Below the pieces are notes generated by a model. It was not told the DNA's origin. It was given only the letters and a program-made list of their open reading frames with translations, and searched no databases. Below, piece by piece: positions 1,607-29,603 of a DNA stretch of 44,098 nt; position 1 is the first letter of the stretch; every line of letters starts with the position of its first letter. The translations under genes and the position numbers were made by a program. The DNA is taken from the IMG/VR virus record IMGVR_UViG_2585427657_000002. One strand, 5' to 3'. The stretch comes from a virus. Its lineage: Duplodnaviria > Heunggongvirae > Uroviricota > Caudoviricetes.

Positions 1607-1664
1607 TATGGCACCTGTGTTGTTCTGAGGTGAGCATATCACCTCTGTTCAGGTGGCCAAATTC

Positions 1665-2018
1665 TGGCCACACTCACGTGGGTGGACTGGTATAACAATC
1701 GACGATTGCTGGAAAGGCAGGGCCATACTCCTCCGGCAGAAGCAGAAAAAGCTTATTATGCTTCCATCGGAAACGATGATCTGGCAGCCTGAGTTCACAG
1801 ATAAAACACTCTCCAGGAAACCCGGGGCGGTTCACAGTAAACCACTTCTGGCCACACTCACGTGGGTGGACTGGTATAACAATCGACGATTGCTGGAAAG
1901 GCAGGGCCATACTCCTCCGGCAGAAGCAGAAAAAGCTTATTATGCTTCCATCGGAAACGATGATCTGGCAGCCTGAGTTCACAGATAAAACACTCTCCAG
2001 GAAACCCGGGGCGGTTCA
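1665..2018 (+). repeat. Two tandem copies of a 170-bp IS3-type right-end fragment, separated by 14 bp
   Basis: 1665..1834 and 1849..2018 are identical; each encodes a transposase C-terminus (...LTWVDWYNNRRLLERQGHTPPAEAEKAYYASIGNDDLAA) and ends in ...CCCGGGGCGGTTCA, an IS3-type terminus. Confidence 0.7.
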
Positions 2019-10968: not shown

Positions 10969-12051
10969 TTAGAACTGATAAACCAGACCTACAGCGACGA
11001 TGTCGTCGGTATCAATACCAGCTGTTTTGGTAAACTTACTATCGTCAATTAAGTTGATTTTGTAATCAACAAAAGTGGACATGTTTTTATTAAAGTAGTA
11101 AGTAGCACCGACATCGACATACTTGACTAAGTCTCGGTCACCATGAACACCAAGGTCTTTACCTTTTGACTGAAGGTAAGCAACAGATGGACGCAGACCG
11201 AAGTCAAACTGATATTGTGCTACTGCTTCAAAGTTTTGTGCTTTGTTTGCAATATGGTTATTACCAAAAACGGTCATATTCTGAGTTTCAGAATATGTGG
11301 TAGCCAGATAGATATTGTTCGCATCATATTTCAGGCCTGCAGCCCATACTTCCGCATTTTTGCCGGAGGCATTGAATTTGCTCTTACCATAGGCGACCTG
11401 ACCGTCAGTGCGATCTGATTTAGCATAGGTTGCACCCACGCCGAATCCTTCATACTCATAAGTAGTGGAGAAACCGAAACCATCACCATTGGCTTCAGTT
11501 ACGTCAGTGCGGTCATTTTTACCCTGATACTGAGCAGCAAAGTTCAGGCCATCGACCAGACCAAAGAAGTCGTTGTTACGATAAGTTGCAACACCAGTAG
11601 TGCGACCAGTCATGAACACATCTGTTTGGGTCCAGGTATCACCACCGAATTCTGGCAGAACGTCAGTCCACGCACCGATGTCGTATGCTACACCGTAGTT
11701 ACGGCCGTAATCGATTGAGCCGTAATCACCAAATTTCAGGCCTGCAAATGCAAGACGGGTTTTGTCTTTGGAAGAACCTTGAGATTCAGCACGGTTGCCT
11801 TTGAATTCATATTCCCACTGACCGAAACCAGTCAGTTGATCGTTGATTTGGGTTTCACCTTTGAAGCCAAGACGGGCATAAGTAGTATCACCATCATCTG
11901 CATCATTAGAGGAGAAGTAGTGCTTGGCATTAACTTTCCCGTATAGATCCAGCTTGTTACTGTCTTTATTATAAATTTCAGCTGCCTGAGCAGACATCGC
12001 CATCAGTACTGATGCAGCTACAGCAGAAATTGCCACTGTTAATTTTTTCAT
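10969..12051 (-). CDS. nmpC: Outer-membrane general porin, phage-encoded OmpC-family (NmpC/Lc type)
   Basis: Signal peptide [23 protein letters not shown] then AEIYNKD...; C-terminal ...VAVGLVYQF; opposite orientation to phage late genes. Start taken as ATG 12051, not the longer ORF-track start. Confidence 0.9.
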
Positions 12052-12477
12052 TGTACGCCCTTTTTTTGAACTTTTATTAAAAAATGATGTCACTGCGCGA
12101 TAAATATTCATCTAATCAATGTGATTATTTCAAGATGTAAGTTTTAGTTTCTCATTTAATTTGTGAAGTAGATCTCTATTTTTATCTGAACCTTTTCTAT
12201 CTAATCCTATTCATGGCTCTTGTCTGAACAAAAATAAATCTATTAGCTAATTTATATTAATGGCACTTATTTATAAGTGCTCTATAATTCTTTAGCTTAA
12301 TTTAAACAAACTAAAAATAACATCGGAAATTATTAACTGGTTATTTGTTGAAGTTTTCTTATGCATTTGTGGTGGTGTTTTGAACACTCGGTGGCATTCT
12401 CACAAATATCATTTAGTAGTTTACGTACGTAAAAAATTGGTTATGCTGTTAAGAGTGGTTACTTCGTCACACAGCTT

Positions 12478-12510
12478 AAACCCGCCGTCGAGCGGGTTTT
12501 TCCATTTTTT
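12478..12510 (+). terminator. Intrinsic terminator upstream of the lysis cassette (candidate tR')
   Basis: Hairpin CCCGC-CGTCGA-GCGGG followed by TTTTTCCATTTTTT, about 130 bp before the holin start. Confidence 0.55.
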
Positions 12511-12639
12511 GAGTCTCGATATTAGCTGATAACCCAATACCTGAGTTATTCACTGACTCCGAATCTGTTACGTTTCTGCCTTTATTGCGATACGTAGTAT
12601 CCCCTTAATTTACACCCGCTTTGTCTGCGAGGTGGGGTT

Positions 12640-12855
12640 ATGAAATCCATGGATAAGTTAACAACGGGTGTCGCCTATGGTACCTCAGCAGGTAGTGCCG
12701 GGTACTGGTTTTTACAGTTGCTCGATAAAGTCACGCCCTCACAGTGGGCGGCAATAGGTGTGCTGGGTAGCCTGGTATTTGGCCTGCTGACGTACCTGAC
12801 AAACCTTTATTTCAAGATTAAAGAAGATAAGCGCAAGGCTGCGAGAGGTGAATAA
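12640..12855 (+). CDS. S: Holin, phage-21 pinholin type
   Basis: 71 aa, [71 protein letters not shown]; two TM segments, dual-start motif MKSM. Confidence 0.9.
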
Positions 12856-13352
12856 TGCCTCCATCATTACGAAAAGCCGTTGCTGCTGCTATTGGTGGCG
12901 GAGCAATTGCTATAGCATCAGTGTTAATCACTGGCCCAAGTGGTAACGATGGTCTGGAAGGTGTCAGCTACATACCATACAAAGATATTGTTGGTGTATG
13001 GACTGTATGTCACGGGCATACAGGAAAAGACATCATGCTCGGTAAAACGTATACCAAAGCAGAATGCAAAGCCCTCCTGAATAAAGACCTTGCCACGGTC
13101 GCCAGACAAATTAACCCGTACATCAAAGTCGATATACCGGAAACAATGCGCGGCGCTCTTTACTCATTCGTTTACAACGTGGGTGCTGGCAATTTCAGAA
13201 CATCGACGCTTCTTCGCAAAATAAACCAGGGCGATATCAAAGGCGCATGTGATCAGCTACGTCGCTGGACATATGCTGGCGGTAAGCAATGGAAAGGTCT
13301 CATGACTCGTCGTGAGATTGAGCGTGAAATCTGTTTGTGGGGTCAGCAATGA
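12855..13352 (+). CDS. R: SAR endolysin (lysozyme with signal-anchor-release N-terminus)
   Basis: 165 aa; N-terminal weakly hydrophobic SAR segment [20 protein letters not shown] followed by lysozyme domain; overlaps holin stop. Confidence 0.9.
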
Positions 13353-13810
13353 ACAGAGTAACCGCGATTATCTCCGCTCTGGTTATCTGCATCATCGTCT
13401 GCCTGTCATGGGCTGTTAATCATTACCGTGATAACGCCATTACCTACAAAGCCCAGCGCGACAAAAATGCCAGAGAACTGACGCTGGCGAACGCGGCAAT
13501 TACTGACATACAGATGCGTCAGCGTGATGTTGCTGCGCTCGATGCAAAATACACGAAGGAGTTAGCTGATGCGAAAGCTGAAAATGATGCTCTGCGTGAT
13601 GATGTTGCCGCTGGTCGTCGTCGGTTGCACATCAAAGCAGTCTGTCAGTCAGTGCGTGAAGCCACCACCGCCTCCGGCGTGGATAATGCAGCCTCCCCCC
13701 GACTGGCAGACACCGCTGAACGGGATTATTTCACCCTCAGAGAGAGGCTGATCACTATGCAAAAACAACTGGAAGGAACCCAGAAGTATATTAATGAGCA
13801 GTGCAGATAG
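13349..13810 (+). CDS. Rz: Rz i-spanin
   Basis: 153 aa, [38 protein letters not shown]...; N-terminal TM then coiled-coil; ATGA overlap with R. Confidence 0.9.
13569..13751 (+). CDS. Rz1: Rz1 o-spanin lipoprotein, embedded in the +1 frame of Rz
   Basis: [20 protein letters not shown]... lipobox, proline-rich mature part; entirely nested within Rz. Confidence 0.85.
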
Positions 13811-13841
13811 AGCTGCCCATATCGATGGGCAACTCATGCAA

Positions 13842-14135
13842 TTATTGTGAGCAATACACACGCGCTTCCAGCGGAGTATAAATGCCTAAAGTAATAAAAC
13901 CGAGCAATCCATTTACGAATGTTTGCTGGGTTTCTGTTTTAACAACATTTTCTGCACCACCACAAATTTTTGCTGCATCGACAGTTTTCTTCTGCCCAAT
14001 TCCCGAAACGAAGAAATGATGGGTGATGGTTTCCTTTGGTGTTACTGCTGTAGGTTTGTTTCCAACAGTAAACGTCTGTTGAGCACATCCTGTAATAAGC
14101 ATTGCCAGAGCGGCAGAAAACAACATTTTTTTCAT
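13842..14135 (-). CDS. bor: Bor lipoprotein (serum-resistance moron)
   Basis: 97 aa from MKKMLFSAALAMLITGCAQQTFTV... (lipobox LITGC). Confidence 0.9.
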   Translation of the reverse strand: MKKMLFSAALAMLITGCAQQTFTVGNKPTAVTPKETITHHFFVSGIGQKKTVDAAKICGGAENVVKTETQQTFVNGLLGFITLGIYTPLEARVYCSQ

Positions 14136-14615
14136 CTTATTATCCTGCATTGTTAAAAACGGCAGAATCCTATGTGACAACAATTAAACGATAGTTAAAT
14201 GGATTGATGAAAATTAAAACTACACAGGTGGGCTCAGACTATTGGAGGAAGTTGGGGACACTCAGAATCCTGTGGAATGAAATAAACCGGTCTATCCGTC
14301 CATTACCCTTTTAGCTGCGCTGTATCGTCGCCGTATTCCCGCATTAACCATGACCGTAGCCCGACGGGGAATTCCTTCTGCGTGAGTGTGCGGGAATAAT
14401 TAAAAACGATGCACACCGGGTTTTTACCGCGTTAATGATTCGCGGGTTTATCCCGGTGCGATGGTGGAAGAAACAGGAAGCTGTATTACAGAAAGTGCTA
14501 CTACTGTATCCCGATGCGATGTATGTAATGTGAGTCAGATAATGGCACAGGATGTGGTGATGTGGCAGTCTGGAACACAGGATATATTGTCAGAATAAGA
14601 CCCGTAGGAATAAAA

Positions 14616-14942
14616 ATGAAAAGACGCCTTTTACTACTTTTTCTGTTATCTGTCCTGGCAGTGGGATGCTCGCAGCAAAAAGCTGATGAGCCCCGGCAAT
14701 TAGTGACGGTGTATCCACGATATCCGGAATATGCTGCAGCAAATTATATCAAGGGGCTGGTTGAGGTTAAGTTCGATATTGGTGCTGATGGGACTGTGAC
14801 ACGGATCGTTTTTCTCCGCTCAGAGCCTCATAATTTGTTTCGTGATGAAGTGGTGAAGGCCATGGCGAAATGGCGATTTGAAAAGAATCGCCCCTGTCAG
14901 GGAGTGAAGAGACAATTTATCTTTACGCCGTCACGTCCTTGA
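14616..14942 (+). CDS. Lipoprotein with TonB C-terminal-like domain (moron)
   Basis: MKRRLLLLFLLSVLAVGCSQQ signal/lipobox, then VYPRYPEYAAANYIKGLVEVKFDIGADGTVTRIVFLRSEPHNLFRDEVVKAMAKWRFE, which matches the TonB_C pattern (YP..A...G.V.V.F.I..DG.V..I.......F...V..A...WR). Confidence 0.7.
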   Translation: MKRRLLLLFLLSVLAVGCSQQKADEPRQLVTVYPRYPEYAAANYIKGLVEVKFDIGADGTVTRIVFLRSEPHNLFRDEVVKAMAKWRFEKNRPCQGVKRQFIFTPSRP

Positions 14943-15064
14943 TGCTTCCAGGTAGAGAGGGGCTGGAAGCAGGAGAAAAATGAAAGAGCCAGCGGTTATA
15001 TTTTTGTCATGGCTGACGAGGAATGATGGAAGAAGGCGTTGTATGCCACACAACGCCTCACTGT

Positions 15065-15418
15065 TCATTTCTTCTTTTTCTCTGGTGGAACCCGATGAAT
15101 AAGAGTTGCACTGGTTTCCGATGAGATGGCGATATACTCGGGCAAAGTATGCTGGCAGTTTTCCAACTGGTCAAAAATACCTGCTCTCGTCTGTTGCAAT
15201 GCCTGCAGCATGCGGCGGCAATGCGCCTTGCTTTTACTAACCATCTTTCCTTCCTCTATCAGTCGCTGCGTGAACTCATCATGGAATACCAGGTAAATGC
15301 GGATGTTATCGGTTTTGGCTACGCAGCATAGTACAAAACGGACAGGTGCATCCCGGGACGGGGGAGGCGTCACATGTCCCTGTGATGGTTGTTCCGGGTA
15401 ATGTACTGTGTGGGGCAT
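15065..15418 (-). CDS. Hypothetical ORF (117 aa), coding status uncertain
   Basis: Open frame only; overlaps the small secretory ORF 15306..15557 and a + strand 60-aa ORF; identical copy at 19418..19771. Confidence 0.25.
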   Translation of the reverse strand: MPHTVHYPEQPSQGHVTPPPSRDAPVRFVLCCVAKTDNIRIYLVFHDEFTQRLIEEGKMVSKSKAHCRRMLQALQQTRAGIFDQLENCQHTLPEYIAISSETSATLIHRVPPEKKKK

Positions 15419-15557
15419 AAAAATGTCCGATAATTTTACTTTCTACCGCAGTTAGTTGATTCGTTGGTCCTGGTAGCACATTGGGCGAGGATTTAAATGC
15501 CAGGCAACTGAAGGATGATGTCGCAAGGGAGATAGCGAGAATATTTCTGATTTTCAT
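15306..15557 (-). CDS. Small predicted secreted Cys-rich protein (83 aa)
   Basis: MKIRNILAISLATSSFSCLA-FKSS signal peptide; mature part has four Cys (C..C.C..C near the C-terminus); identical copy at 19659..19910. Confidence 0.3.
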   Translation of the reverse strand: MKIRNILAISLATSSFSCLAFKSSPNVLPGPTNQLTAVESKIIGHFYAPHSTLPGTTITGTCDASPVPGCTCPFCTMLRSQNR

Positions 15558-15705
15558 TTGATGATGCCTCTGTGTGAAATGACGGTAAACGACGCACTTG
15601 TGCCGGCACATAATAGCAAGCACCATAATAGATCAGATTCGATTCTTGCTGTAAGTGATAATTATTCTCGTTTTCGGGTCCTTTCCGTCGATCCAACAGG
15701 TTACG

Positions 15706-15717
15706 GGGCGGCGACCT
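15706..15717 (+). other. cos: cosN cohesive-end site GGGCGGCGACCT (copy 1)
   Basis: ...ATCCAACAGGTTACG|GGGCGGCGACCT|CGCGG... matches the lambda right-end/left-end junction as recalled; cosB-like inverted GTCCGACATGAAAG / CATGTCGGGC elements lie between it and Nu1. Confidence 0.85.
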
Positions 15718-15893
15718 CGCGGTTTTTCACTATTTATGAAAATTTTTCAGGGAAAATCGTGTCGGTACTTCTCGAATATAACTTTTTGTTTTTTTTAATA
15801 TTGCATCCGTAAAGGTCCGACATGAAAGTGTCCGAAAATGCCTTTTTCTGGCGTTTTCATGTCGGGCCTTGTATTTGATAATGGGTTGTTTTC

Positions 15894-16158
15894 ATGAAGG
15901 TTAATAAAAAGAGGCTTGCCGAAATTTTCAACGTGGACCCGCGGACGATTGAACGCTGGCAGTCTCAGGGACTCCCTTGCGCCTCCAAAGGTAGTAAGGG
16001 CATTGAATCTGTATTTGATACTGCCATGGCAATTCAGTGGTATGCGCAGAGGGAAACTGATATCGAAAACGAAAAGCTCCGCAAAGAACTGGACGATTTG
16101 CGTGCGGCAGCGGAGTCAGATTTACAACCCGGCACCATTGACTATGAACGCTACCGGC
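15894..16158 (+). pseudogene. nu1: Terminase small subunit Nu1, 5' copy truncated after codon ~88 by a rearrangement junction
   Basis: [33 protein letters not shown]...TIDYERYR then sequence switches to the reverse complement of the porin upstream region. Confidence 0.7.
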
Positions 16159-16323
16159 ACATCTTGAAATAATCACATTGATTAGATGAATATTTATCGC
16201 GCAGTGACATCATTTTTTAATAAAAGTTCAAAAAAAGGGCGTACAATGAAAAAATTAACAGTGGCAATTTCTGCTGTAGCTGCATCAGTACTGATGGCGA
16301 TGTCTGCTCAGGCAGCTGAAATT
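16159..16323. repeat. Fold-back arm: reverse complement of 11974..12138 forming a perfect palindrome with 16327..16491
   Basis: 16159..16323 reads as the exact reverse complement of the porin 5' end and upstream region; symmetry centre at about 16325 (GCTGAAATT-ATA-AATTTCAGC). Confidence 0.85.
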
Positions 16324-16830
16324 ATAAATTTCAGCTGCCTGAGCAGACATCGCCATCAGTACTGATGCAGCTACAGCAGAAATTGCCACTGTTAATTTTT
16401 TCATTGTACGCCCTTTTTTTGAACTTTTATTAAAAAATGATGTCACTGCGCGATAAATATTCATCTAATCAATGTGATTATTTCAAGATGTAAGTTTTAG
16501 TTTCTCATTTAATTTGTGAAGTAGATCTCTATTTTTATCTGAACCTTTTCTATCTAATCCTATTCATGGCTCTTGTCTGAACAAAAATAAATCTATTAGC
16601 TAATTTATATTAATGGCACTTATTTATAAGTGCTCTATAATTCTTTAGCTTAATTTAAACAAACTAAAAATAACATCGGAAATTATTAACTGGTTATTTG
16701 TTGAAGTTTTCTTATGCATTTGTGGTGGTGTTTTGAACACTCGGTGGCATTCTCACAAATATCATTTAGTAGTTTACGTACGTAAAAAATTGGTTATGCT
16801 GTTAAGAGTGGTTACTTCGTCACACAGCTT

Positions 16831-16863
16831 AAACCCGCCGTCGAGCGGGTTTTTCCATTTTTT
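16831..16863 (+). terminator. Duplicate of terminator 12478..12510
   Basis: Identical sequence at offset +4353. Confidence 0.5.
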
Positions 16864-16992
16864 GAGTCTCGATATTAGCTGATAACCCAATACCTGAGTT
16901 ATTCACTGACTCCGAATCTGTTACGTTTCTGCCTTTATTGCGATACGTAGTATCCCCTTAATTTACACCCGCTTTGTCTGCGAGGTGGGGTT

Positions 16993-17208
16993 ATGAAATC
17001 CATGGATAAGTTAACAACGGGTGTCGCCTATGGTACCTCAGCAGGTAGTGCCGGGTACTGGTTTTTACAGTTGCTCGATAAAGTCACGCCCTCACAGTGG
17101 GCGGCAATAGGTGTGCTGGGTAGCCTGGTATTTGGCCTGCTGACGTACCTGACAAACCTTTATTTCAAGATTAAAGAAGATAAGCGCAAGGCTGCGAGAG
17201 GTGAATAA
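16993..17208 (+). CDS. S: Holin (duplicate copy)
   Basis: Identical to 12640..12855. Confidence 0.85.
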
Positions 17209-17705
17209 TGCCTCCATCATTACGAAAAGCCGTTGCTGCTGCTATTGGTGGCGGAGCAATTGCTATAGCATCAGTGTTAATCACTGGCCCAAGTGGTAAC
17301 GATGGTCTGGAAGGTGTCAGCTACATACCATACAAAGATATTGTTGGTGTATGGACTGTATGTCACGGGCATACAGGAAAAGACATCATGCTCGGTAAAA
17401 CGTATACCAAAGCAGAATGCAAAGCCCTCCTGAATAAAGACCTTGCCACGGTCGCCAGACAAATTAACCCGTACATCAAAGTCGATATACCGGAAACAAT
17501 GCGCGGCGCTCTTTACTCATTCGTTTACAACGTGGGTGCTGGCAATTTCAGAACATCGACGCTTCTTCGCAAAATAAACCAGGGCGATATCAAAGGCGCA
17601 TGTGATCAGCTACGTCGCTGGACATATGCTGGCGGTAAGCAATGGAAAGGTCTCATGACTCGTCGTGAGATTGAGCGTGAAATCTGTTTGTGGGGTCAGC
17701 AATGA
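17208..17705 (+). CDS. R: SAR endolysin (duplicate copy)
   Basis: Identical to 12855..13352. Confidence 0.85.
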
Positions 17706-18163
17706 ACAGAGTAACCGCGATTATCTCCGCTCTGGTTATCTGCATCATCGTCTGCCTGTCATGGGCTGTTAATCATTACCGTGATAACGCCATTACCTAC
17801 AAAGCCCAGCGCGACAAAAATGCCAGAGAACTGACGCTGGCGAACGCGGCAATTACTGACATACAGATGCGTCAGCGTGATGTTGCTGCGCTCGATGCAA
17901 AATACACGAAGGAGTTAGCTGATGCGAAAGCTGAAAATGATGCTCTGCGTGATGATGTTGCCGCTGGTCGTCGTCGGTTGCACATCAAAGCAGTCTGTCA
18001 GTCAGTGCGTGAAGCCACCACCGCCTCCGGCGTGGATAATGCAGCCTCCCCCCGACTGGCAGACACCGCTGAACGGGATTATTTCACCCTCAGAGAGAGG
18101 CTGATCACTATGCAAAAACAACTGGAAGGAACCCAGAAGTATATTAATGAGCAGTGCAGATAG
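17702..18163 (+). CDS. Rz: Rz i-spanin (duplicate copy)
   Basis: Identical to 13349..13810. Confidence 0.85.
17922..18104 (+). CDS. Rz1: Rz1 o-spanin (duplicate copy)
   Basis: Identical to 13569..13751. Confidence 0.8.
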
Positions 18164-18194
18164 AGCTGCCCATATCGATGGGCAACTCATGCAA

Positions 18195-18488
18195 TTATTG
18201 TGAGCAATACACACGCGCTTCCAGCGGAGTATAAATGCCTAAAGTAATAAAACCGAGCAATCCATTTACGAATGTTTGCTGGGTTTCTGTTTTAACAACA
18301 TTTTCTGCACCACCACAAATTTTTGCTGCATCGACAGTTTTCTTCTGCCCAATTCCCGAAACGAAGAAATGATGGGTGATGGTTTCCTTTGGTGTTACTG
18401 CTGTAGGTTTGTTTCCAACAGTAAACGTCTGTTGAGCACATCCTGTAATAAGCATTGCCAGAGCGGCAGAAAACAACATTTTTTTCAT
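18195..18488 (-). CDS. bor: Bor lipoprotein (duplicate copy)
   Basis: Identical to 13842..14135. Confidence 0.85.
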   Translation of the reverse strand: MKKMLFSAALAMLITGCAQQTFTVGNKPTAVTPKETITHHFFVSGIGQKKTVDAAKICGGAENVVKTETQQTFVNGLLGFITLGIYTPLEARVYCSQ

Positions 18489-18968
18489 CTTATTATCCTG
18501 CATTGTTAAAAACGGCAGAATCCTATGTGACAACAATTAAACGATAGTTAAATGGATTGATGAAAATTAAAACTACACAGGTGGGCTCAGACTATTGGAG
18601 GAAGTTGGGGACACTCAGAATCCTGTGGAATGAAATAAACCGGTCTATCCGTCCATTACCCTTTTAGCTGCGCTGTATCGTCGCCGTATTCCCGCATTAA
18701 CCATGACCGTAGCCCGACGGGGAATTCCTTCTGCGTGAGTGTGCGGGAATAATTAAAAACGATGCACACCGGGTTTTTACCGCGTTAATGATTCGCGGGT
18801 TTATCCCGGTGCGATGGTGGAAGAAACAGGAAGCTGTATTACAGAAAGTGCTACTACTGTATCCCGATGCGATGTATGTAATGTGAGTCAGATAATGGCA
18901 CAGGATGTGGTGATGTGGCAGTCTGGAACACAGGATATATTGTCAGAATAAGACCCGTAGGAATAAAA

Positions 18969-19295
18969 ATGAAAAGACGCCTTTTACTACTTTTTCTGTT
19001 ATCTGTCCTGGCAGTGGGATGCTCGCAGCAAAAAGCTGATGAGCCCCGGCAATTAGTGACGGTGTATCCACGATATCCGGAATATGCTGCAGCAAATTAT
19101 ATCAAGGGGCTGGTTGAGGTTAAGTTCGATATTGGTGCTGATGGGACTGTGACACGGATCGTTTTTCTCCGCTCAGAGCCTCATAATTTGTTTCGTGATG
19201 AAGTGGTGAAGGCCATGGCGAAATGGCGATTTGAAAAGAATCGCCCCTGTCAGGGAGTGAAGAGACAATTTATCTTTACGCCGTCACGTCCTTGA
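18969..19295 (+). CDS. TonB-C-like lipoprotein (duplicate copy)
   Basis: Identical to 14616..14942. Confidence 0.65.
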   Translation: MKRRLLLLFLLSVLAVGCSQQKADEPRQLVTVYPRYPEYAAANYIKGLVEVKFDIGADGTVTRIVFLRSEPHNLFRDEVVKAMAKWRFEKNRPCQGVKRQFIFTPSRP

Positions 19296-20058
19296 TGCTT
19301 CCAGGTAGAGAGGGGCTGGAAGCAGGAGAAAAATGAAAGAGCCAGCGGTTATATTTTTGTCATGGCTGACGAGGAATGATGGAAGAAGGCGTTGTATGCC
19401 ACACAACGCCTCACTGTTCATTTCTTCTTTTTCTCTGGTGGAACCCGATGAATAAGAGTTGCACTGGTTTCCGATGAGATGGCGATATACTCGGGCAAAG
19501 TATGCTGGCAGTTTTCCAACTGGTCAAAAATACCTGCTCTCGTCTGTTGCAATGCCTGCAGCATGCGGCGGCAATGCGCCTTGCTTTTACTAACCATCTT
19601 TCCTTCCTCTATCAGTCGCTGCGTGAACTCATCATGGAATACCAGGTAAATGCGGATGTTATCGGTTTTGGCTACGCAGCATAGTACAAAACGGACAGGT
19701 GCATCCCGGGACGGGGGAGGCGTCACATGTCCCTGTGATGGTTGTTCCGGGTAATGTACTGTGTGGGGCATAAAAATGTCCGATAATTTTACTTTCTACC
19801 GCAGTTAGTTGATTCGTTGGTCCTGGTAGCACATTGGGCGAGGATTTAAATGCCAGGCAACTGAAGGATGATGTCGCAAGGGAGATAGCGAGAATATTTC
19901 TGATTTTCATTTGATGATGCCTCTGTGTGAAATGACGGTAAACGACGCACTTGTGCCGGCACATAATAGCAAGCACCATAATAGATCAGATTCGATTCTT
20001 GCTGTAAGTGATAATTATTCTCGTTTTCGGGTCCTTTCCGTCGATCCAACAGGTTACG

Positions 20059-20070
20059 GGGCGGCGACCT
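20059..20070 (+). other. cos: cosN (copy 2)
   Basis: Identical to 15706..15717 with the same flanks. Confidence 0.8.
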
Positions 20071-20246
20071 CGCGGTTTTTCACTATTTATGAAAATTTTT
20101 CAGGGAAAATCGTGTCGGTACTTCTCGAATATAACTTTTTGTTTTTTTTAATATTGCATCCGTAAAGGTCCGACATGAAAGTGTCCGAAAATGCCTTTTT
20201 CTGGCGTTTTCATGTCGGGCCTTGTATTTGATAATGGGTTGTTTTC

Positions 20247-20795
20247 ATGAAGGTTAATAAAAAGAGGCTTGCCGAAATTTTCAACGTGGACCCGCGGACG
20301 ATTGAACGCTGGCAGTCTCAGGGACTCCCTTGCGCCTCCAAAGGTAGTAAGGGCATTGAATCTGTATTTGATACTGCCATGGCAATTCAGTGGTATGCGC
20401 AGAGGGAAACTGATATCGAAAACGAAAAGCTCCGCAAAGAACTGGACGATTTGCGTGCGGCAGCGGAGTCAGATTTACAACCCGGCACCATTGACTATGA
20501 ACGCTACCGGCTCACAAAAGCGCAGGCAGATGCGCAGGAACTGAAAAATGCCCGTGAAGACGGAGTAGTGCTGGAAACTGAACTGTTTACCTTCATTCTG
20601 CAACGTGTGGCACAGGAGATTTCGGGGATACTTGTGCGTGTGCCGTTGACATTACAGCGTAAATATCCGGACATTTCACCATCACACCTTGATGTGGTGA
20701 AAACTGAAATCGCGAAAGCCTCCAATGTTGCAGCTAAGGCCGGTGAAAACGTGGGCGGGTGGATCGATGATTTCAGACGCGCAGAAGGCAGCTAA
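20247..20795 (+). CDS. nu1: Terminase small subunit Nu1 (full length, in duplicated copy B)
   Basis: 182 aa; ...[54 protein letters not shown]...; winged-helix N-terminus. Confidence 0.85.
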
Positions 20796-21358
20796 TGCAG
20801 CCGGTGCGATAGCTACAGGGCTTTTATCTCTCATTATTCCTGTTCCACTGACGACAGTTCAGTGGGCCAATAAACATTATTACCTTCCTAAAGAGTCGTC
20901 TTATACCCCGGGGCGATGGGAAACACTGCCGTTTCAGGTTGGCATCATGAACTGTATGGGCAACGATCTGATTCGCACGGTTAACCTGATTAAATCTGCC
21001 CGTGTTGGTTATACAAAGATGTTGCTGGGAGTGGAGGCTTATTTTATTGAGCATAAATCACGCAACAGCCTTCTTTTTCAGCCCACGGACTCAGCTGCTG
21101 AAGATTTTATGAAATCTCATGTTGAGCCAACGATAAGGGATGTTCCTGCATTGCTGGAGCTGGCTCCATGGTTCGGAAGAAAACACCGCGATAATACGCT
21201 CACCCTGAAGCGTTTTTCCTCCGGTGTGGGGTTCTGGTGTCTGGGTGGTGCGGCAGCAAAAAACTACCGTGAAAAATCCGTGGATGTGGTCTGTTATGAC
21301 GAGCTTTCCTCGTTCGAACCGGATGTTGAAAAAGAGGGTTCGCCAACCCTGCTGGGGG
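20725..21358 (+). pseudogene. A: Terminase large subunit A, 5' fragment ending at a rearrangement junction
   Basis: Identical to the first ~210 codons of 22889..24859, then joins sequence equivalent to 15426 onward (...PTLLG then GTCCGATAATTTTAC...). Confidence 0.7.
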
Positions 21359-21638
21359 TCCGATAATTTTACTTTCTACCGCAGTTAGTTGATTCGTTGG
21401 TCCTGGTAGCACATTGGGCGAGGATTTAAATGCCAGGCAACTGAAGGATGATGTCGCAAGGGAGATAGCGAGAATATTTCTGATTTTCATTTGATGATGC
21501 CTCTGTGTGAAATGACGGTAAACGACGCACTTGTGCCGGCACATAATAGCAAGCACCATAATAGATCAGATTCGATTCTTGCTGTAAGTGATAATTATTC
21601 TCGTTTTCGGGTCCTTTCCGTCGATCCAACAGGTTACG

Positions 21639-21650
21639 GGGCGGCGACCT
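21639..21650 (+). other. cos: cosN (copy 3)
   Basis: Identical 12-mer and flanks. Confidence 0.8.
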
Positions 21651-21826
21651 CGCGGTTTTTCACTATTTATGAAAATTTTTCAGGGAAAATCGTGTCGGTA
21701 CTTCTCGAATATAACTTTTTGTTTTTTTTAATATTGCATCCGTAAAGGTCCGACATGAAAGTGTCCGAAAATGCCTTTTTCTGGCGTTTTCATGTCGGGC
21801 CTTGTATTTGATAATGGGTTGTTTTC

Positions 21827-22092
21827 ATGAAGGTTAATAAAAAGAGGCTTGCCGAAATTTTCAACGTGGACCCGCGGACGATTGAACGCTGGCAGTCTCA
21901 GGGACTCCCTTGCGCCTCCAAAGGTAGTAAGGGCATTGAATCTGTATTTGATACTGCCATGGCAATTCAGTGGTATGCGCAGAGGGAAACTGATATCGAA
22001 AACGAAAAGCTCCGCAAAGAACTGGACGATTTGCGTGCGGCAGCGGAGTCAGATTTACAACCCGGCACCATTGACTATGAACGCTACCGGCT
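21827..22092 (+). pseudogene. nu1: Nu1 5' fragment (third copy), truncated after codon ~88
   Basis: ...TIDYERYRL then joins sequence equivalent to 15576 onward. Confidence 0.7.
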
Positions 22093-22222
22093 GAAATGAC
22101 GGTAAACGACGCACTTGTGCCGGCACATAATAGCAAGCACCATAATAGATCAGATTCGATTCTTGCTGTAAGTGATAATTATTCTCGTTTTCGGGTCCTT
22201 TCCGTCGATCCAACAGGTTACG

Positions 22223-22234
22223 GGGCGGCGACCT
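22223..22234 (+). other. cos: cosN (copy 4, the one contiguous with the intact packaging/head operon)
   Basis: Identical 12-mer and flanks, about 190 bp upstream of the intact Nu1 at 22411. Confidence 0.85.
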
Positions 22235-22410
22235 CGCGGTTTTTCACTATTTATGAAAATTTTTCAGGGAAAATCGTGTCGGTACTTCTCGAATATAACT
22301 TTTTGTTTTTTTTAATATTGCATCCGTAAAGGTCCGACATGAAAGTGTCCGAAAATGCCTTTTTCTGGCGTTTTCATGTCGGGCCTTGTATTTGATAATG
22401 GGTTGTTTTC

Positions 22411-22959
22411 ATGAAGGTTAATAAAAAGAGGCTTGCCGAAATTTTCAACGTGGACCCGCGGACGATTGAACGCTGGCAGTCTCAGGGACTCCCTTGCGCC
22501 TCCAAAGGTAGTAAGGGCATTGAATCTGTATTTGATACTGCCATGGCAATTCAGTGGTATGCGCAGAGGGAAACTGATATCGAAAACGAAAAGCTCCGCA
22601 AAGAACTGGACGATTTGCGTGCGGCAGCGGAGTCAGATTTACAACCCGGCACCATTGACTATGAACGCTACCGGCTCACAAAAGCGCAGGCAGATGCGCA
22701 GGAACTGAAAAATGCCCGTGAAGACGGAGTAGTGCTGGAAACTGAACTGTTTACCTTCATTCTGCAACGTGTGGCACAGGAGATTTCGGGGATACTTGTG
22801 CGTGTGCCGTTGACATTACAGCGTAAATATCCGGACATTTCACCATCACACCTTGATGTGGTGAAAACTGAAATCGCGAAAGCCTCCAATGTTGCAGCTA
22901 AGGCCGGTGAAAACGTGGGCGGGTGGATCGATGATTTCAGACGCGCAGAAGGCAGCTAA
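22411..22959 (+). CDS. nu1: Terminase small subunit Nu1
   Basis: 182 aa, identical to 20247..20795; followed by overlapping terminase A. Confidence 0.9.
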
Positions 22960-24859
22960 TGCAGCCGGTGCGATAGCTACAGGGCTTTTATCTCTCATTA
23001 TTCCTGTTCCACTGACGACAGTTCAGTGGGCCAATAAACATTATTACCTTCCTAAAGAGTCGTCTTATACCCCGGGGCGATGGGAAACACTGCCGTTTCA
23101 GGTTGGCATCATGAACTGTATGGGCAACGATCTGATTCGCACGGTTAACCTGATTAAATCTGCCCGTGTTGGTTATACAAAGATGTTGCTGGGAGTGGAG
23201 GCTTATTTTATTGAGCATAAATCACGCAACAGCCTTCTTTTTCAGCCCACGGACTCAGCTGCTGAAGATTTTATGAAATCTCATGTTGAGCCAACGATAA
23301 GGGATGTTCCTGCATTGCTGGAGCTGGCTCCATGGTTCGGAAGAAAACACCGCGATAATACGCTCACCCTGAAGCGTTTTTCCTCCGGTGTGGGGTTCTG
23401 GTGTCTGGGTGGTGCGGCAGCAAAAAACTACCGTGAAAAATCCGTGGATGTGGTCTGTTATGACGAGCTTTCCTCGTTCGAACCGGATGTTGAAAAAGAG
23501 GGTTCGCCAACCCTGCTGGGGGATAAACGTATTGAGGGCTCTGTATGGCCAAAATCCATTCGCGGCTCGACGCCTAAAATCAAAGGCTCCTGCCAGATCG
23601 AAAAAGCCGCTAACGAGTCGGCACACTTCATGCGTTTTTATGTGCCCTGTCCGCACTGTGGGGAGGAGCAGTATCTGAAATTTGGCGATGATGCCTCGCC
23701 TTTCGGTCTTAAGTGGGAGAAGAATAAGCCAGAAAGTGTTTTCTACCTTTGTGAGCATCATGGCTGTGTGATCCATCAGTCTGAGCTTGACCAGAGTAAC
23801 GGGCGGTGGATCTGTGAAAACACGGGCATGTGGACCCGTGACGGCCTGATGTTTTTCAGCGCCCGGGGTGATGAAATTCCGCCGCCGCGCTCCATCACTT
23901 TCCATATCTGGACGGCGTACAGTCCGTTCACCACCTGGGTACAGATTGTCTATGACTGGCTGGATGCACTGAAAGATCCCAACGGCCTGAAAACCTTTGT
24001 GAACACCACGCTGGGCGAGACCTGGGAAGAGGCTGTGGGCGAAAAACTCGATCACCAGGTGCTGATGGATAAGGTTGTGCGTTACACGGCGGCGGTGCCT
24101 GCCCGGGTGGTTTATCTGACGGCGGGCATTGACTCGCAGCGAAACCGTTTTGAGATGTATGTCTGGGGATGGGCTCCGGGAGAGGAAGCCTTTCTGGTGG
24201 ATAAAATCATCATTATGGGGCGTCCCGATGAGGAAGAGACGCTGTTACGTGTGGATGCGGCGATCAACAAAAAATACCGCCATGCAGACGGAACCGAAAT
24301 GACCATTTCCCGTGTCTGCTGGGACATCGGGGGGATCGATGGCGAAATCGTTTATCAGAGGTCAAAAAAACACGGTGTTTTCCGGGTGCTGCCGGTAAAA
24401 GGCGCGTCTGTCTATGGCAAGCCGGTGATCACCATGCCGAAAACCCGCAATCAGCGGGGCGTTTATCTGTGTGAAGTGGGGACGGACACCGCAAAAGAAA
24501 TTCTCTATGCCCGTATGAAAGCCGAGCCCACGCCTGCGGATGAAGCCACGTCGTATGCCATCCGTTTTCCTGATGATCCGGAGATTTTTTCGCAGACAGA
24601 GGCGCAGCAACTGGTCGCGGAAGAGCTTGTGGAGAAGTGGGAAAAAGGAAAGATGCGTCTGCTGTGGGATAACAAAAAGCGGCGTAACGAAGCGCTGGAC
24701 TGCCTGGTGTATGCCTACGCGGCATTACGTGTGTCCGTGCAACGCTGGCAGCTTGATCTGGCTGTACTGGCAAAATCCCGGGAAGAAGAGACGACCCGGC
24801 CAACCCTTAAAGAACTGGCAGCGAAGCTGTCCGGAGGAGTGAATGGTTACAGTCGCTGA
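22889..24859 (+). CDS. A: Terminase large subunit A
   Basis: ...[32 protein letters not shown]...[14 protein letters not shown]...[19 protein letters not shown]... lambda gpA pattern; start could alternatively be the ATG at 22931 (MISDAQ...). Confidence 0.9.
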
Positions 24860-28169: not shown

Positions 28170-28517
28170 ATGGTGACGAAAACCATCACTGAACAGCGTG
28201 CGGAAGTACGTATTTTTGCCGGTAATGATCCGGCTCATACCGCCACAGGCAGCAGCGGGATTTCCTCGCCAACACCGGCACTGACGCCCCTGATGCTGGA
28301 TGAAGCCACCGGGAAACTGGTGGTCTGGGACGGACAGAAAGCCGGTAGTGCGGTTGGCATACTGGTACTGCCGCTTGAAGGCACAGAGACGGCGCTGACG
28401 TATTACAAGTCGGGAACCTTTGCGACGGAGGCAATCCACTGGCCTGAAAGTGTGGATGAACACAAAAAGGCCAACGCCTTTGCTGGCAGTGCCCTGAGTC
28501 ACGCGGCGCTGCCGTAA
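28170..28517 (+). CDS. D: Head decoration protein D
   Basis: 115 aa, ...NDPAHTATGSSGISSPTPALTPLMLDEATGKLVVWDGQKAGSAVGILVLPLEG... Confidence 0.9.
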   Translation: MVTKTITEQRAEVRIFAGNDPAHTATGSSGISSPTPALTPLMLDEATGKLVVWDGQKAGSAVGILVLPLEGTETALTYYKSGTFATEAIHWPESVDEHKKANAFAGSALSHAALP

Positions 28518-28574
28518 CACGTTATCAGGCCACCGCGGTGGCCTGACTGATTTCTGAATGAAAGGAACTGATTT

Positions 28575-29603
28575 ATGGGATTGTTTACGACCCGCCAGTT
28601 ACTCGGTTATACCGAACAAAAAGTTAAATTTCGTGCGCTGTTTCTGGAGCTGTTTTTCCGCCGTACGGTGAATTTCCATACCGAAGAGGTGATGCTGGAC
28701 AAAATTACCGGAAAAACGCCGGTGGCGGCCTATGTCTCCCCGGTTGTTGAAGGAAAAGTGCTGCGTCATCGTGGTGGTGAAACCCGCGTGTTGCGTCCGG
28801 GCTACGTCAAGCCGAAACACGAATTTAATTACCAGCAGGCGGTTGAGCGCCTTCCTGGTGAAGATCCATCTCAACTGAATGATCCGGCTTACCGCCGTCT
28901 GCGTATCATTACCGATAACCTCAAACAGGAAGAGCACGCGATTGTCCAGGTGGAAGAAATGCAGGCGGTAAATGCTGTGTTGTATGGCAAATACACCATG
29001 GAAGGAGACCAGTTCGAGAAAATTGAGGTCGATTTTGGCAGGTCGACGAAGAATAACATCACTCAGGGTAGTGGTAAGGAGTGGTCAAAACAGGATCGTG
29101 ACACGTTCGATCCTACACATGATATTGACCTCTACTGCGACCTGGCCAGCGGTCTTGTGAATATTGCCATTATGGACGGTACCGTCTGGCGTCTTCTGAA
29201 TGGTTTTAAGCTGTTCCGCGAAAAACTGGATACCCGTCGCGGTTCAAATTCTCAACTCGAAACGGCAGTGAAAGATCTGGGCGCAGTGGTGTCCTTCAAG
29301 GGGTATTACGGCGATCTGGCCATTGTGGTGGCGAAAACGTCTTATATAGCAGAAGACGGTATCGAAAAACGTTATCTTCCAGATGGCATGCTGGTTCTGG
29401 GGAATACTGCTGCAGATGGGATCCGTTGTTACGGTGCCATTCAGGATGCTCAGGCGTTGTCCGAAGGTGTGGTGGCCTCTTCCCGTTATCCGAAACACTG
29501 GCTGACGGTAGGGGATCCCGCCCGTGAATTTACCATGACGCAGTCCGCGCCGCTGATGGTGTTGCCGGACCCGGATGAGTTTGTGGTGGTACAGGTGAAA
29601 TAA
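28575..29603 (+). CDS. E: Major capsid protein E
   Basis: 342 aa, ...LDTRRGSNSQLETAVKDLGAVVSFKGYYGDLAIVV...GDPAREFTMTQSAPLMVLPDPDEFVVVQVK. Confidence 0.95.
   Translation: MGLFTTRQLLGYTEQKVKFRALFLELFFRRTVNFHTEEVMLDKITGKTPVAAYVSPVVEGKVLRHRGGETRVLRPGYVKPKHEFNYQQAVERLPGEDPSQLNDPAYRRLRIITDNLKQEEHAIVQVEEMQAVNAVLYGKYTMEGDQFEKIEVDFGRSTKNNITQGSGKEWSKQDRDTFDPTHDIDLYCDLASGLVNIAIMDGTVWRLLNGFKLFREKLDTRRGSNSQLETAVKDLGAVVSFKGYYGDLAIVVAKTSYIAEDGIEKRYLPDGMLVLGNTAADGIRCYGAIQDAQALSEGVVASSRYPKHWLTVGDPAREFTMTQSAPLMVLPDPDEFVVVQVK

What the first reader, a model, noticed from the sequence alone, without database searches (positions are those of the whole stretch)
14616..14942. Lipoprotein moron with a TonB C-terminal-like domain
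Downstream of bor, a ~108-aa predicted lipoprotein carries the conserved pattern of the TonB C-terminal domain, the part of TonB that contacts the TonB box of outer-membrane transporters. A periplasmic lipoprotein decoy of this kind could interfere with TonB-dependent uptake (siderophores, colicins, TonB-dependent phages), which would be a superinfection-exclusion or colicin-protection function. This is inference from motif similarity only.
Basis: inference. Interest (0 to 1): 0.5.

Follow-up and report, generated by a model that had tools for sequence, protein, structure and literature searches.

The report
Phage outer-membrane lipoprotein carrying a TonB domain
A small gene in this E. coli prophage encodes a lipid-anchored copy of only the receptor-binding end of the TonB energy-transfer protein; databases already label it a TonB family protein and about 30% of E. 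coli genomes carry it, but nobody has tested its function, and the best guess is that it jams TonB-dependent uptake.

Summary
Window 14616-14942 (+) is a 108-aa ORF with a good RBS and a lipoprotein signal peptide (LAVGC|SQQ, predicted outer-membrane sorting). It has one TonB_C domain (Pfam E=7e-13). An AlphaFold model (pLDDT 88) superposes on E. coli TonB C-terminal domain, including receptor-bound forms, at 0.9-1.5 Å.

It is not new as an object. The same gene is annotated in phage 21, Nissle 1917 and 1616 of 5426 complete E. coli genomes. No functional study was found.

It is not a decaying TonB fragment. dN/dS is 0.12 between two phage clades, and 1611 of 1616 copies are full length. Its closest relatives are small chromosomal TonB_C lipoproteins of Klebsiella, Raoultella, Serratia and Erwinia.

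It lacks TonB's membrane anchor and proline-rich spacer, so it cannot transduce energy.

The decoy idea is plausible, because periplasmic TonB fragments inhibit transport and T5 Llp acts on FhuA from the periplasm. It remains untested, and several facts argue for caution.

The gene sits in a discrete cassette after the lysis genes, in the late-operon orientation, with no detectable promoter.

An exact second copy (18969-19295) comes from a non-reference 4.35-kb duplication.

The parts
14616..14942 (+). Gene for the 108-aa TonB_C lipoprotein. It is identical to phage 21 CPT_21_73 (UMO75484.1) and to WP_000830178.1.
   Evidence: ORF. Pfam and NCBIfam matches. DNA is 100% identical to phage 21, Nissle 1917 and other records.
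14616..14669 (+). Lipoprotein signal peptide with lipobox L-A-V-G-C. Cys18 is the predicted lipidated first residue of the mature protein. Ser at +2 predicts Lol sorting to the outer membrane.
   Evidence: Sequence. Lipobox regex. Gly17-Cys18 are invariant in both E. coli phage clades, and the Cys is kept in many distant homologues.
14691..14930 (+). TonB_C domain, residues 26-105, corresponding to E. coli TonB 153-232. Order of elements: short N-terminal strand, helix 1, strands 1 and 2, helix 2, strand 3.
   Evidence: Ungapped alignment to TonB CTD. AF2 pLDDT of about 96-98 over this range. Foldseek TM 0.91-0.92.
14604..14607 (+). Shine-Dalgarno-like AGGA, 6 nt before the ATG.
   Evidence: Read directly. 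Annotated as an RBS in phage 21.
14485..14975 (+). Approximate extent of the inserted cassette that carries the gene. The left edge is defined by loss of homology to lambdoid phages that lack the gene.
   Evidence: Homology to phages without the gene ends at about 14424-14484. In JLK-2012, a 653-bp cassette replaces 246 bp of Stx2a_WGPS8.
18969..19295 (+). Exact second copy of the gene, inside a 4191-bp perfect repeat (11968-16158 = 16321-20511).
   Evidence: The junction is absent from all 5426 complete E. coli genomes.
14322..14461 (+). Conserved structured non-coding element immediately upstream of the cassette. It is a neighbour shared by many lambdoid phages, not a specific part of the gene.

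Best explanation
The gene encodes a periplasm-facing lipoprotein anchored in the inner leaflet of the outer membrane. Its single domain is a TonB C-terminal domain on a tether of about 8 residues. It has no inner-membrane anchor, no ExbB/ExbD coupling motif and no proline-rich spacer, so it cannot deliver energy.

The most likely mechanism is unproductive binding. The protein would bind the exposed TonB box of TonB-dependent outer-membrane transporters (FhuA, BtuB, FepA, Cir and others) by the same beta-strand addition that TonB uses. It would compete with TonB and dampen TonB-dependent uptake of siderophores, B12, group B colicins and microcins, and infection by TonB-dependent phages.

Shown here: the gene, the lipobox, the fold, purifying selection, its distribution and its position. 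Inferred: outer-membrane location, TonB-box binding, the inhibitory outcome, and the timing of expression. On timing, it is most likely read as part of the Q-dependent late transcript, because it lies between the lysis and packaging genes on the same strand and has no recognisable promoter.
For: - Fold: the model is essentially identical to TonB CTD, including the receptor-bound conformations in BtuB:TonB and FhuA:TonB (TM 0.92, rmsd 0.9-1.0 Å).
- Sequence: the alignment to TonB 151-230 is ungapped. It keeps the PRxL...PxYP N-terminal segment and F180, G186, F202, W213, F230 (Y215 becomes F).
- Missing parts: at 108 aa with a lipobox, there is no TM helix or Pro-rich spacer. It scores 69 bits against 265-448-bit cut-offs for the TonB equivalog models.
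- Selection: dN/dS is 0.12 between clades that are 72% identical in protein. 1611 of 1616 genomic copies are full length and annotated as CDS.
- Position: it sits in the same slot (after the lysis cassette, before terminase, on the late strand) in three different phage backbones.
[quoted passage not shown] 2001, as cited in PMC9841981).
- Precedent for phage lipoproteins: T5 Llp is a periplasmic lipoprotein that binds the periplasmic face of FhuA. The Cor lipoproteins of T1 and phi80 are proposed to act the same way (PMC9586334).
- Possible compensation: the same prophage type carries sitABCD, an iron/manganese ABC importer. From my own knowledge it does not depend on TonB. It could offset a loss of TonB-dependent iron uptake.
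Against: - No binding or phenotype was tested, and no complex model could be run.
- TonB positions tied by genetics and crystal structures to Ton-box contact (R158, Q160, R166; from established literature, recalled from memory) are T31, Y33, Y39 here and vary within the family.
- Homologues at 37-49% identity are chromosomal and outside prophages in Klebsiella, Raoultella, Serratia and Erwinia. The family may therefore have a cellular role unrelated to phage exclusion.
- Carriers include ExPEC strains such as ST131 strain EC958, CFT073, Nissle 1917 and BEN2908. From my own knowledge, these strains rely on TonB-dependent siderophores, so a strong constitutive block would be costly.
- No sigma-70-like promoter, Fur box or terminator was found, so lysogenic expression is unproven.
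- Phage 21 uses LamB, so the protein does not guard its own receptor.
- The sit linkage is weak. About 20 further sit-carrying phage records lack this gene, and none of the clade-2 phages appears among the sit-carrying records.
Confidence: 0.4

Rival explanations
1. The protein is an envelope lipoprotein with a function independent of TonB-dependent transporters. Its TonB_C fold would serve as a general beta-strand-binding or peptidoglycan-associating module. It would tether the outer membrane to another partner, and the phage simply carries a copy of a chromosomal enterobacterial lipoprotein as cargo that benefits the host.
For: - On the domain alone, the closest relatives are small lipoproteins (47-49% identity, 83-91 bits), not TonB (41%, 66 bits).
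- These relatives are chromosomal and sit in varied non-phage contexts: lacZ/lacI, araA, ycgN-dsbB-nhaB-fadR.
- Many other secreted single-domain or multi-domain TonB_C proteins exist (2795 hits).
- The Ton-box contact residues of TonB are not conserved.
Against: - No partner or motif was identified.
- The neighbourhoods of the chromosomal homologues give no functional hint.
- The fold is closest to receptor-bound TonB.
Confidence: 0.25
2. The protein poisons the energy transducer rather than the receptors. It would form heterodimers with the C-terminal domain of host TonB, or bind the ExbD periplasmic domain, and hold them at the outer membrane. The TonB-deficient phenotype would be the same but the target different.
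For: - The aromatic residues that mediate TonB CTD homodimer contacts in the literature (F202, W213, Y215, F230; recalled from memory) are conserved as F75, W86, F88, F103.
- The crystal form 1u07, a TonB CTD dimer, is the top structural match.
Against: - These residues are also core residues of the fold, so their conservation does not discriminate.
- No interaction data exist.
Confidence: 0.12
3. The protein is a lysis accessory or spanin-like protein, as implied by the label 'Rz-like spanin' on PHROG 1267.
For: - The full-length match to phrog_1267 has E=5e-43.
- The gene always lies just after the lysis cassette, on the same strand, in three phage backbones.
Against: - The phage already has a complete Rz/Rz1 pair.
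- The gene is not embedded in or adjacent to an i-spanin gene. bor on the opposite strand and about 800 nt lie between them.
- The mature protein is a globular TonB_C domain, not a short proline-rich peptide.
- Other spanin PHROGs match only the signal peptide, at E of about 0.1.
Confidence: 0.05
4. The gene is a passenger fragment of a captured tonB gene that now does nothing, as annotations such as 'TonB fragment' and 'partial tonB-like membrane protein' imply.
For: - Annotations in ev017 and Perceval say so.
- The protein covers only the last third or so of TonB.
Against: - dN/dS is 0.12, with dS of about 1.5.
- A bona fide lipoprotein signal peptide has been added and is conserved.
- 1611 of 1616 copies are intact.
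- There is a good RBS.
Confidence: 0.08

Closest known systems
C-terminal domain of E. coli TonB (residues ~150-239; PDB 1U07, 2GSK chain B, 2GRX chain C)
   Same: Same fold (TM 0.91-0.92, rmsd 0.9-1.5 Å). Identity is 38-41% with no gaps. The YP motif, the core aromatic residues and strand 3 are all kept.
   Different: It has no N-terminal TM anchor, no Pro-rich spacer and no link to ExbB/ExbD. It is anchored to the outer membrane by a lipid instead of to the inner membrane. R158, Q160 and R166 are replaced. It ends about 4 residues earlier.
Engineered periplasmic TonB C-terminal fragments (Howard, Herrmann, Stratilo and Braun 2001, J Bacteriol 183:5885; seen here only as cited in PMC9841981)
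   Same: A TonB C-terminal domain delivered to the periplasm without its energy-coupling N-terminus. Over-production is reported to inhibit iron import through TonB-dependent transporters.
   Different: Those fragments were laboratory constructs of TonB itself, soluble and over-produced. This is a natural, diverged, lipid-anchored protein whose expression level is unknown.
Superinfection-exclusion lipoproteins Llp (T5) and Cor (T1, phi80, N15)
   Same: Small phage-encoded lipoproteins that face the periplasm and act on a TonB-dependent transporter from the periplasmic side (PMC9586334; PMC11436027).
   Different: No sequence or fold relation: TonB_C is the only Pfam match. Llp binds the FhuA plug rather than the TonB box, and it protects the phage's own receptor. 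Phage 21 uses LamB. A TonB-box binder would act on many transporters at once.
Uncharacterised small chromosomal TonB_C lipoproteins of Klebsiella, Raoultella, Serratia and Erwinia (for example P0041, P0043, P0044; loci L006-L013)
   Same: Same architecture (lipobox plus one TonB_C domain, 107-133 aa). Shared motifs SEPxHLFD and KWRFExxKPxxG. Identity on the domain is 41-49% for the closest members (P0041-P0045).
   Different: They are chromosomal and not in prophages. Their function is also unknown.
Bor/Iss, the neighbouring lambdoid lipoprotein moron
   Same: A small outer-membrane lipoprotein gene lodged in the lysis-to-packaging interval of lambdoid phages.
   Different: Bor is on the opposite strand and is noted as expressed in the lysogenic state (933W record annotation). 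It is an unrelated protein.

Membership tests
TonB_C domain (Pfam PF03544 / TIGR01352) | Profile match above the curated threshold | tested here: met
   PF03544: 49.2 bits against 24.6, E=7.3e-13. TIGR01352: 47.4 bits against 27.1.
TonB_C domain (Pfam PF03544 / TIGR01352) | Fold with two helices packed on a three-stranded sheet, as in solved TonB CTDs | tested here: met
   AF2 pLDDT 87.8, about 96-98 over the domain. Foldseek top 11 hits are all TonB or FusB CTDs, target-normalised TM up to 0.92.
TonB_C domain (Pfam PF03544 / TIGR01352) | YP motif and conserved core residues (TonB Y163-P164, F180, G186, F202, W213, F230) | tested here: met
   Y36-P37, F53, G59, F75, W86 and F103 align without gaps.
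Bona fide TonB energy transducer (NCBIfam PRK10819 equivalogs) | N-terminal inner-membrane anchor that couples to ExbB/ExbD | tested here: not met
   The N-terminus is a cleavable lipoprotein signal peptide and the whole protein is 108 aa.
Bona fide TonB energy transducer (NCBIfam PRK10819 equivalogs) | Proline-rich spacer that spans the periplasm | tested here: not met
   Only about 8 residues lie between Cys18 and the start of the domain.
Bona fide TonB energy transducer (NCBIfam PRK10819 equivalogs) | Score above the equivalog cut-off | tested here: not met
   Best score is 69.2 bits against cut-offs of 265-448 bits. Matches cover only the C-terminal 80 positions of the models.
Bacterial outer-membrane lipoprotein | Signal peptide ending in a lipobox with an invariant Cys, and no Asp at +2 | tested here: met
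   MKRR-hydrophobic-LAVGC|SQ matches the PROSITE-type pattern. G17 and C18 are invariant in both E. coli clades. +2 is Ser, Thr or Ala.
Bacterial outer-membrane lipoprotein | Actual lipidation and outer-membrane localisation | not testable with these tools
   Needs globomycin sensitivity, palmitate labelling and membrane fractionation.
Cor/Llp superinfection-exclusion lipoproteins | Sequence or fold relation to Cor or Llp | tested here: not met
   TonB_C is the only Pfam family matched. There was no PADLOC match. The best structural matches are all TonB CTDs.
Cor/Llp superinfection-exclusion lipoproteins | Blocks infection through a TonB-dependent transporter | not testable with these tools
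   Needs plating assays with T1, phi80, T5, H8 and similar phages.
o-spanin (Rz1-like), as labelled for PHROG 1267 | Gene embedded in, overlapping or adjacent to an i-spanin gene; short proline-rich mature peptide | tested here: not met
   Rz/Rz1 are present separately at 13337-13810 and 13569-13751. bor and about 800 nt lie between them and this gene. The mature protein is a globular domain.
Moron (autonomous extra gene in a phage genome) | Discrete insertion between genes that are adjacent in related phages | tested here: met
   JLK-2012 carries a 653-bp cassette where Stx2a_WGPS8 has 246 unrelated bp. Lambda-like phages lose homology at 14424-14484.
Moron (autonomous extra gene in a phage genome) | Own promoter and terminator | tested here: inconclusive
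   No + strand sigma-70-like site with at least 9 of 12 matches lies upstream. No terminator-like site follows the gene. No Fur box was found: the best match is 11/19, which is the chance level. Consensus scans are weak evidence.
Moron (autonomous extra gene in a phage genome) | Expression from the repressed prophage | not testable with these tools
   Needs RNA-seq or a reporter in a lysogen, with and without induction.

The most novel reading that the evidence does not exclude
This would be a broad-spectrum TonB-box decoy: an outer-membrane-tethered TonB C-terminal domain that caps the TonB boxes of all TonB-dependent transporters at once. That would be a third mechanism for phage lipoproteins acting on these transporters, distinct from Llp and Cor. 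It would give an infected or lysogenic cell simultaneous resistance to TonB-dependent phages, group B colicins and siderophore-microcins. The co-carried SitABCD importer could offset the lost iron uptake. The chromosomal homologues in Klebsiella, Raoultella and Serratia would then be endogenous post-translational brakes on TonB-dependent uptake.
Probability: 0.25. Interest if true: 0.7.

Novelty: new variant of a known kind. Interest (0 to 1): 0.45.

Why it matters
The gene is present in about 30% of complete E. coli genomes. Carriers include Nissle 1917, CFT073, the ST131 strain EC958 and O111 strains.

TonB-dependent uptake underlies several important processes: siderophore-based virulence, entry of siderophore-antibiotic conjugates, killing by colicins and microcins, and infection by many phages.

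A natural protein inhibitor of the interaction between TonB and the TonB box would matter in three ways:
- It would affect how phage- and bacteriocin-susceptibility data are interpreted in these strains.
- It would add a new mode of superinfection exclusion.
- It would give a ready-made scaffold for the TonB-targeting antibacterial strategy already pursued with peptides (PMC9841981).

If it does not inhibit TonB, the family still marks an uncharacterised use of the TonB_C fold as an outer-membrane lipoprotein module.

Tried and rejected
- Literature. Ten full-text searches used phage 21, TonB, bor, the protein accession, 'tonB-like', decoy and mimic wording, Jouyvirus, and Cor, Llp and FhuA. 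None found a paper on this protein. The phage 21 genome announcement says only that the morons of phages 21 and 434 differ from lambda's. Howard et al. 2001 is not held, so it is cited second-hand.
- First AlphaFold run. With six near-identical sequences it gave pLDDT 60.8 and weak Foldseek scores. A 17-sequence alignment replaced it.
- Word-indexed homology search. Run with the protein and then with a profile, it stayed within E. coli. The exhaustive search was needed to find distant relatives.
- Related-locus search with the 17-sequence alignment. It failed for lack of a conserved stretch. A 6-sequence alignment worked.
- Lysis or terminase homologues near the Klebsiella, Raoultella, Serratia and Erwinia loci. 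None were found, and Pfam on neighbouring genes showed ordinary chromosomal genes.
- Fur box and promoter scans were negative.
- The PADLOC search was negative.
- Rfam on 14100-15750 gave only a chance miRNA match.
- The AFDB library was not available. BFVD viral structures gave no significant match.
- Link to sitABCD. Every phage record with the window-clade gene also carries sit, but about 20 further sit-carrying records lack the gene. None of the clade-2 phages appears among the sit-carrying records. Shared backbone explains this as well as function does.
- Spanin reading of PHROG 1267. Rejected on gene arrangement and fold.

Full report
**1. What is in the sequence**

Window 14616-14942 (+) is an ORF of 108 codons. 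It starts at an ATG that has AGGA six bases upstream, and phage 21's curated record marks that site as the RBS.

The product begins MKRRLLLLFLLSVLAVGC|SQQ. That is a positively charged n-region, a hydrophobic core and a lipobox, with Ser at +2. By the established +2 rule for Lol sorting, this predicts a lipoprotein of the inner leaflet of the outer membrane.

bor lies just upstream on the opposite strand (13842-14135). The S21 pinholin, SAR endolysin and Rz/Rz1 genes lie before it.

**2. The domain**

- Pfam TonB_C matches at E=7.3e-13, 49 bits against a 24.6-bit threshold.
- TIGR01352 matches at 1.8e-12.
- phmmer against all PDB chains puts E. coli TonB C-terminal domain first (1u07, 1xx3, 2gsk_B, 2grx_C; E of about 1e-14). 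The alignment is ungapped, with residues 24-103 matching TonB 151-230.
- From the sequence of the 1u07 chain, phage residue i corresponds to TonB residue i+127.
- Kept: Y36-P37 = Y163-P164, F53 = F180, G59 = G186, F75 = F202, W86 = W213, F103 = F230.
- Changed: F88 in place of Y215, T31 in place of R158, Y33 in place of Q160, Y39 in place of R166.

The first AlphaFold run, on six close sequences, was poor (pLDDT 60.8). With 17 diverse family members the model reached pLDDT 87.8, and about 96-98 across residues 31-100.

Foldseek against the PDB gave 1u07_A TM 0.91 / 1.5 Å, 2gsk_B (TonB bound to BtuB) TM 0.92 / 1.0 Å, and 2grx_C (TonB bound to FhuA) TM 0.92 / 0.9 Å.

**3. It is not a TonB**

The protein scores 69 bits against equivalog cut-offs of 265-448 bits, and it matches only the last 80 or so positions of those models. 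It has no transmembrane anchor and no proline-rich spacer. It cannot be coupled to ExbB/ExbD.

**4. It is already annotated and very common**

- The DNA is 100% identical in phage 21 (CPT_21_73, 'TonB C-terminal domain protein'), ev017 ('Partial tonB-like membrane protein...'), Perceval ('TonB fragment') and three ECOR-derived phages.
- It is also identical in Nissle 1917 (WP_000830178.1, 'TonB family protein').
- 1616 of 5426 complete E. coli genomes carry the gene, and 1611 of those copies are full length.
- 1224 genomes have a copy at 95% nucleotide identity or more. Examples are Nissle 1917, ST131 strain EC958 and BEN2908.
- 392 genomes have a copy at about 74% nucleotide identity. Examples are O111 strains.
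- Only 15 of 50,697 phage records have it.
- 218 IMG/VR contigs have it.
- BFVD holds no similar viral structure.
- Ten literature searches found no functional study. The phage 21 genome note does not discuss it.

**5. It is a working gene, not a relic**

Between the window copy and the JLK-2012 copy (72% protein identity), dN=0.18 and dS=1.50, so dN/dS=0.12. The value is 0.10 over the domain and 0.16 over the signal peptide. Gly17 and Cys18 are invariant across both clades.

**6. Where it comes from**

The exhaustive profile-free search found 2795 relatives. Many are 107-133-aa proteins with a lipobox or signal peptide followed by one TonB_C domain.

On the domain alone, the phage protein is closer to these small lipoproteins (47-49% identity, 83-91 bits) than to E. 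coli TonB (41%, 66 bits).

In species-representative genomes the homologues lie in Klebsiella, Raoultella, Serratia and Erwinia chromosomes. Their neighbours are lacZ/lacI, araA, or ycgN-dsbB-nhaB-fadR, with no phage lysis or terminase genes nearby.

The phage gene is therefore a mobilised member of an uncharacterised enterobacterial lipoprotein family, not a truncated tonB.

**7. Genomic setting**

The gene occupies the same slot in every case examined: after the last lysis gene, before the packaging genes, on the late-gene strand. The cases are:
- phage 21 and the Nissle prophage;
- JLK-2012, which has a different backbone with HNH and terS/terL genes;
- Klebsiella phage ST13-OXA48phi12.4;
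- three further E. coli prophages.

Comparing JLK-2012 with Stx2a_WGPS8 shows a discrete 653-bp cassette replacing 246 bp. Lambda-like phages lose homology to the window at 14424-14484.

No sigma-70-like promoter, Fur box or intrinsic terminator was found around the gene. The simplest reading is that it is transcribed as part of the Q-antiterminated late operon. Lysogenic expression cannot be excluded.

**8. Mechanism**

[quoted passage not shown] It rests on:
- the near-identical fold, including strand 3, the strand that pairs with the TonB box in 2GSK and 2GRX (established structures, recalled from memory);
- the predicted outer-membrane tether;
- the absence of any energy-coupling part;
- the reported inhibition of iron import through TonB-dependent transporters by over-produced periplasmic TonB domain;
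- the precedent of Llp (and probably Cor) acting on FhuA from the periplasm.

The evidence against is real:
- contact residues R158, Q160 and R166 are not conserved;
- the family has chromosomal members with no phage link;
- carriers include ExPEC strains, which from my own knowledge depend on TonB-dependent siderophores;
- the phage's own receptor is LamB;
- expression timing is unknown.

The rivals are set out in the Rival explanations section. They are a TonB-independent envelope role, sequestration of TonB or ExbD, a lysis accessory role, and an inert passenger.

The spanin label on PHROG 1267 is almost certainly an annotation error. It was probably carried over because of the gene's position and its lipoprotein signal.

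**9. A possible link to iron**

Phage 21 and the Nissle prophage carry sitABCD beyond the tail-fibre genes, just outside this window. Every phage record with the window-clade gene also has sit.

About 20 further sit-carrying records lack the gene, and none of the clade-2 phages appears among the sit-carrying records. The association may only reflect a shared backbone.

**10. Side observations**

- The window equals the Nissle-type icd prophage, except for nested exact duplications around nu1 and A and a 334-nt perfect palindrome. No complete E. coli genome has that junction. These duplications create the second gene copy at 18969-19295.
- Immediately upstream of the cassette lies a conserved element (about 14322-14461) found in 432 phage records, including lambda, 434 and 933W. 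It has a consensus hairpin structure that is better paired on the + strand (96.5% against 88.5%; 30 G·U pairs against 5). Four pairs show compensatory changes. It has no Rfam match.

**11. Verdict**

The annotation-level claim is already known. The functional hypothesis is reasonable, untested and apparently unpublished. The protein is best classed as a new variant of a known kind: a TonB_C domain re-tethered to the outer membrane as a phage-borne lipoprotein. Interest is moderate.

Noticed in passing
window 11968-23522: Nested exact duplications relative to the Nissle 1917 prophage. 11968-16158 is repeated at 16321-20511. 15425-16158 and 19778-20512 are repeated at 21358-22092. 19928-21358 is repeated at 22092-23522. 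A 170-nt inverted copy of 11969-12138 at 16159-16327 forms a 334-nt near-perfect palindrome (16159-16491). None of 5426 complete E. coli genomes has this junction. This looks like a long-read or fold-back assembly artefact, or a strain-specific rearrangement. It duplicates the lysis genes, bor and the TonB_C gene.
   Followed up: partly
window 14322-14461 (+); also lambda 46865-46974, 933W 28479-28590: A conserved non-coding element between the lysis and packaging modules, present in 432 phage records. Between the two gene clades it is 81-87% identical, against about 74% nucleotide identity for the CDS and about 55% for the proximal leader. RNAalifold gives a long irregular hairpin plus a second hairpin (35 pairs). 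96.5% of cells are paired on the + strand against 88.5% on the - strand. Four pairs show compensatory changes (3 of 500 shuffles reach this). There is no Rfam match. It may be a structured element of the late transcript. Only 9 sequences were analysed, and recent recombination could also explain the conservation.
   Followed up: partly
just beyond the right end of the window (phage 21 21967-25400; Nissle 4823460-4826909): The same prophage type carries sitABCD, an iron/manganese ABC importer, downstream of the tail-fibre genes. 27 phage records hold it, including every record with the window-clade TonB_C gene. From my own knowledge it does not depend on TonB. It could compensate for TonB inhibition, or it may be only a backbone linkage.
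   Followed up: partly
window 15065-15418 (-) and 15306-15626 (-): Two overlapping minus-strand ORFs (117 and 106 aa) lie between the TonB_C gene and cos. The second has an internal signal-peptide-like stretch (MKIRNILAISLATSSFSCLA). Neither has a Pfam match. RefSeq and the phage 21 record instead annotate a 60-aa + strand ORF at 15149-15331. Which of these is real, if any, is unclear.
   Followed up: partly
PHROG phrog_1267: The PHROG family that contains this protein is labelled 'Rz-like spanin' (E=5e-43, full length). The protein is a TonB_C-domain lipoprotein, and the phage has its own Rz/Rz1. The label looks like a propagated mis-annotation.
   Followed up: yes
locus L005 (NZ_SJEX01000172.1, 'Modestobacter excelsi', 418-bp contig): A 418-bp contig in an actinobacterial assembly encodes residues 1-67 of this E. 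coli phage protein at 100% identity. It is almost certainly E. coli contamination of that assembly.
   Followed up: no
window 1662-1834 and 1846-2018: A perfect 173-nt direct repeat with start-to-start spacing of 184 nt, at the left end of the window. Not examined.
   Followed up: no
window 10969-12111 (-): An OmpC-like porin gene carried by the prophage between the Q antiterminator and the lysis genes. Nissle 1917 annotates it as 'porin OmpC'. Its 5' end is the segment that is inverted at the duplication junction.
   Followed up: no
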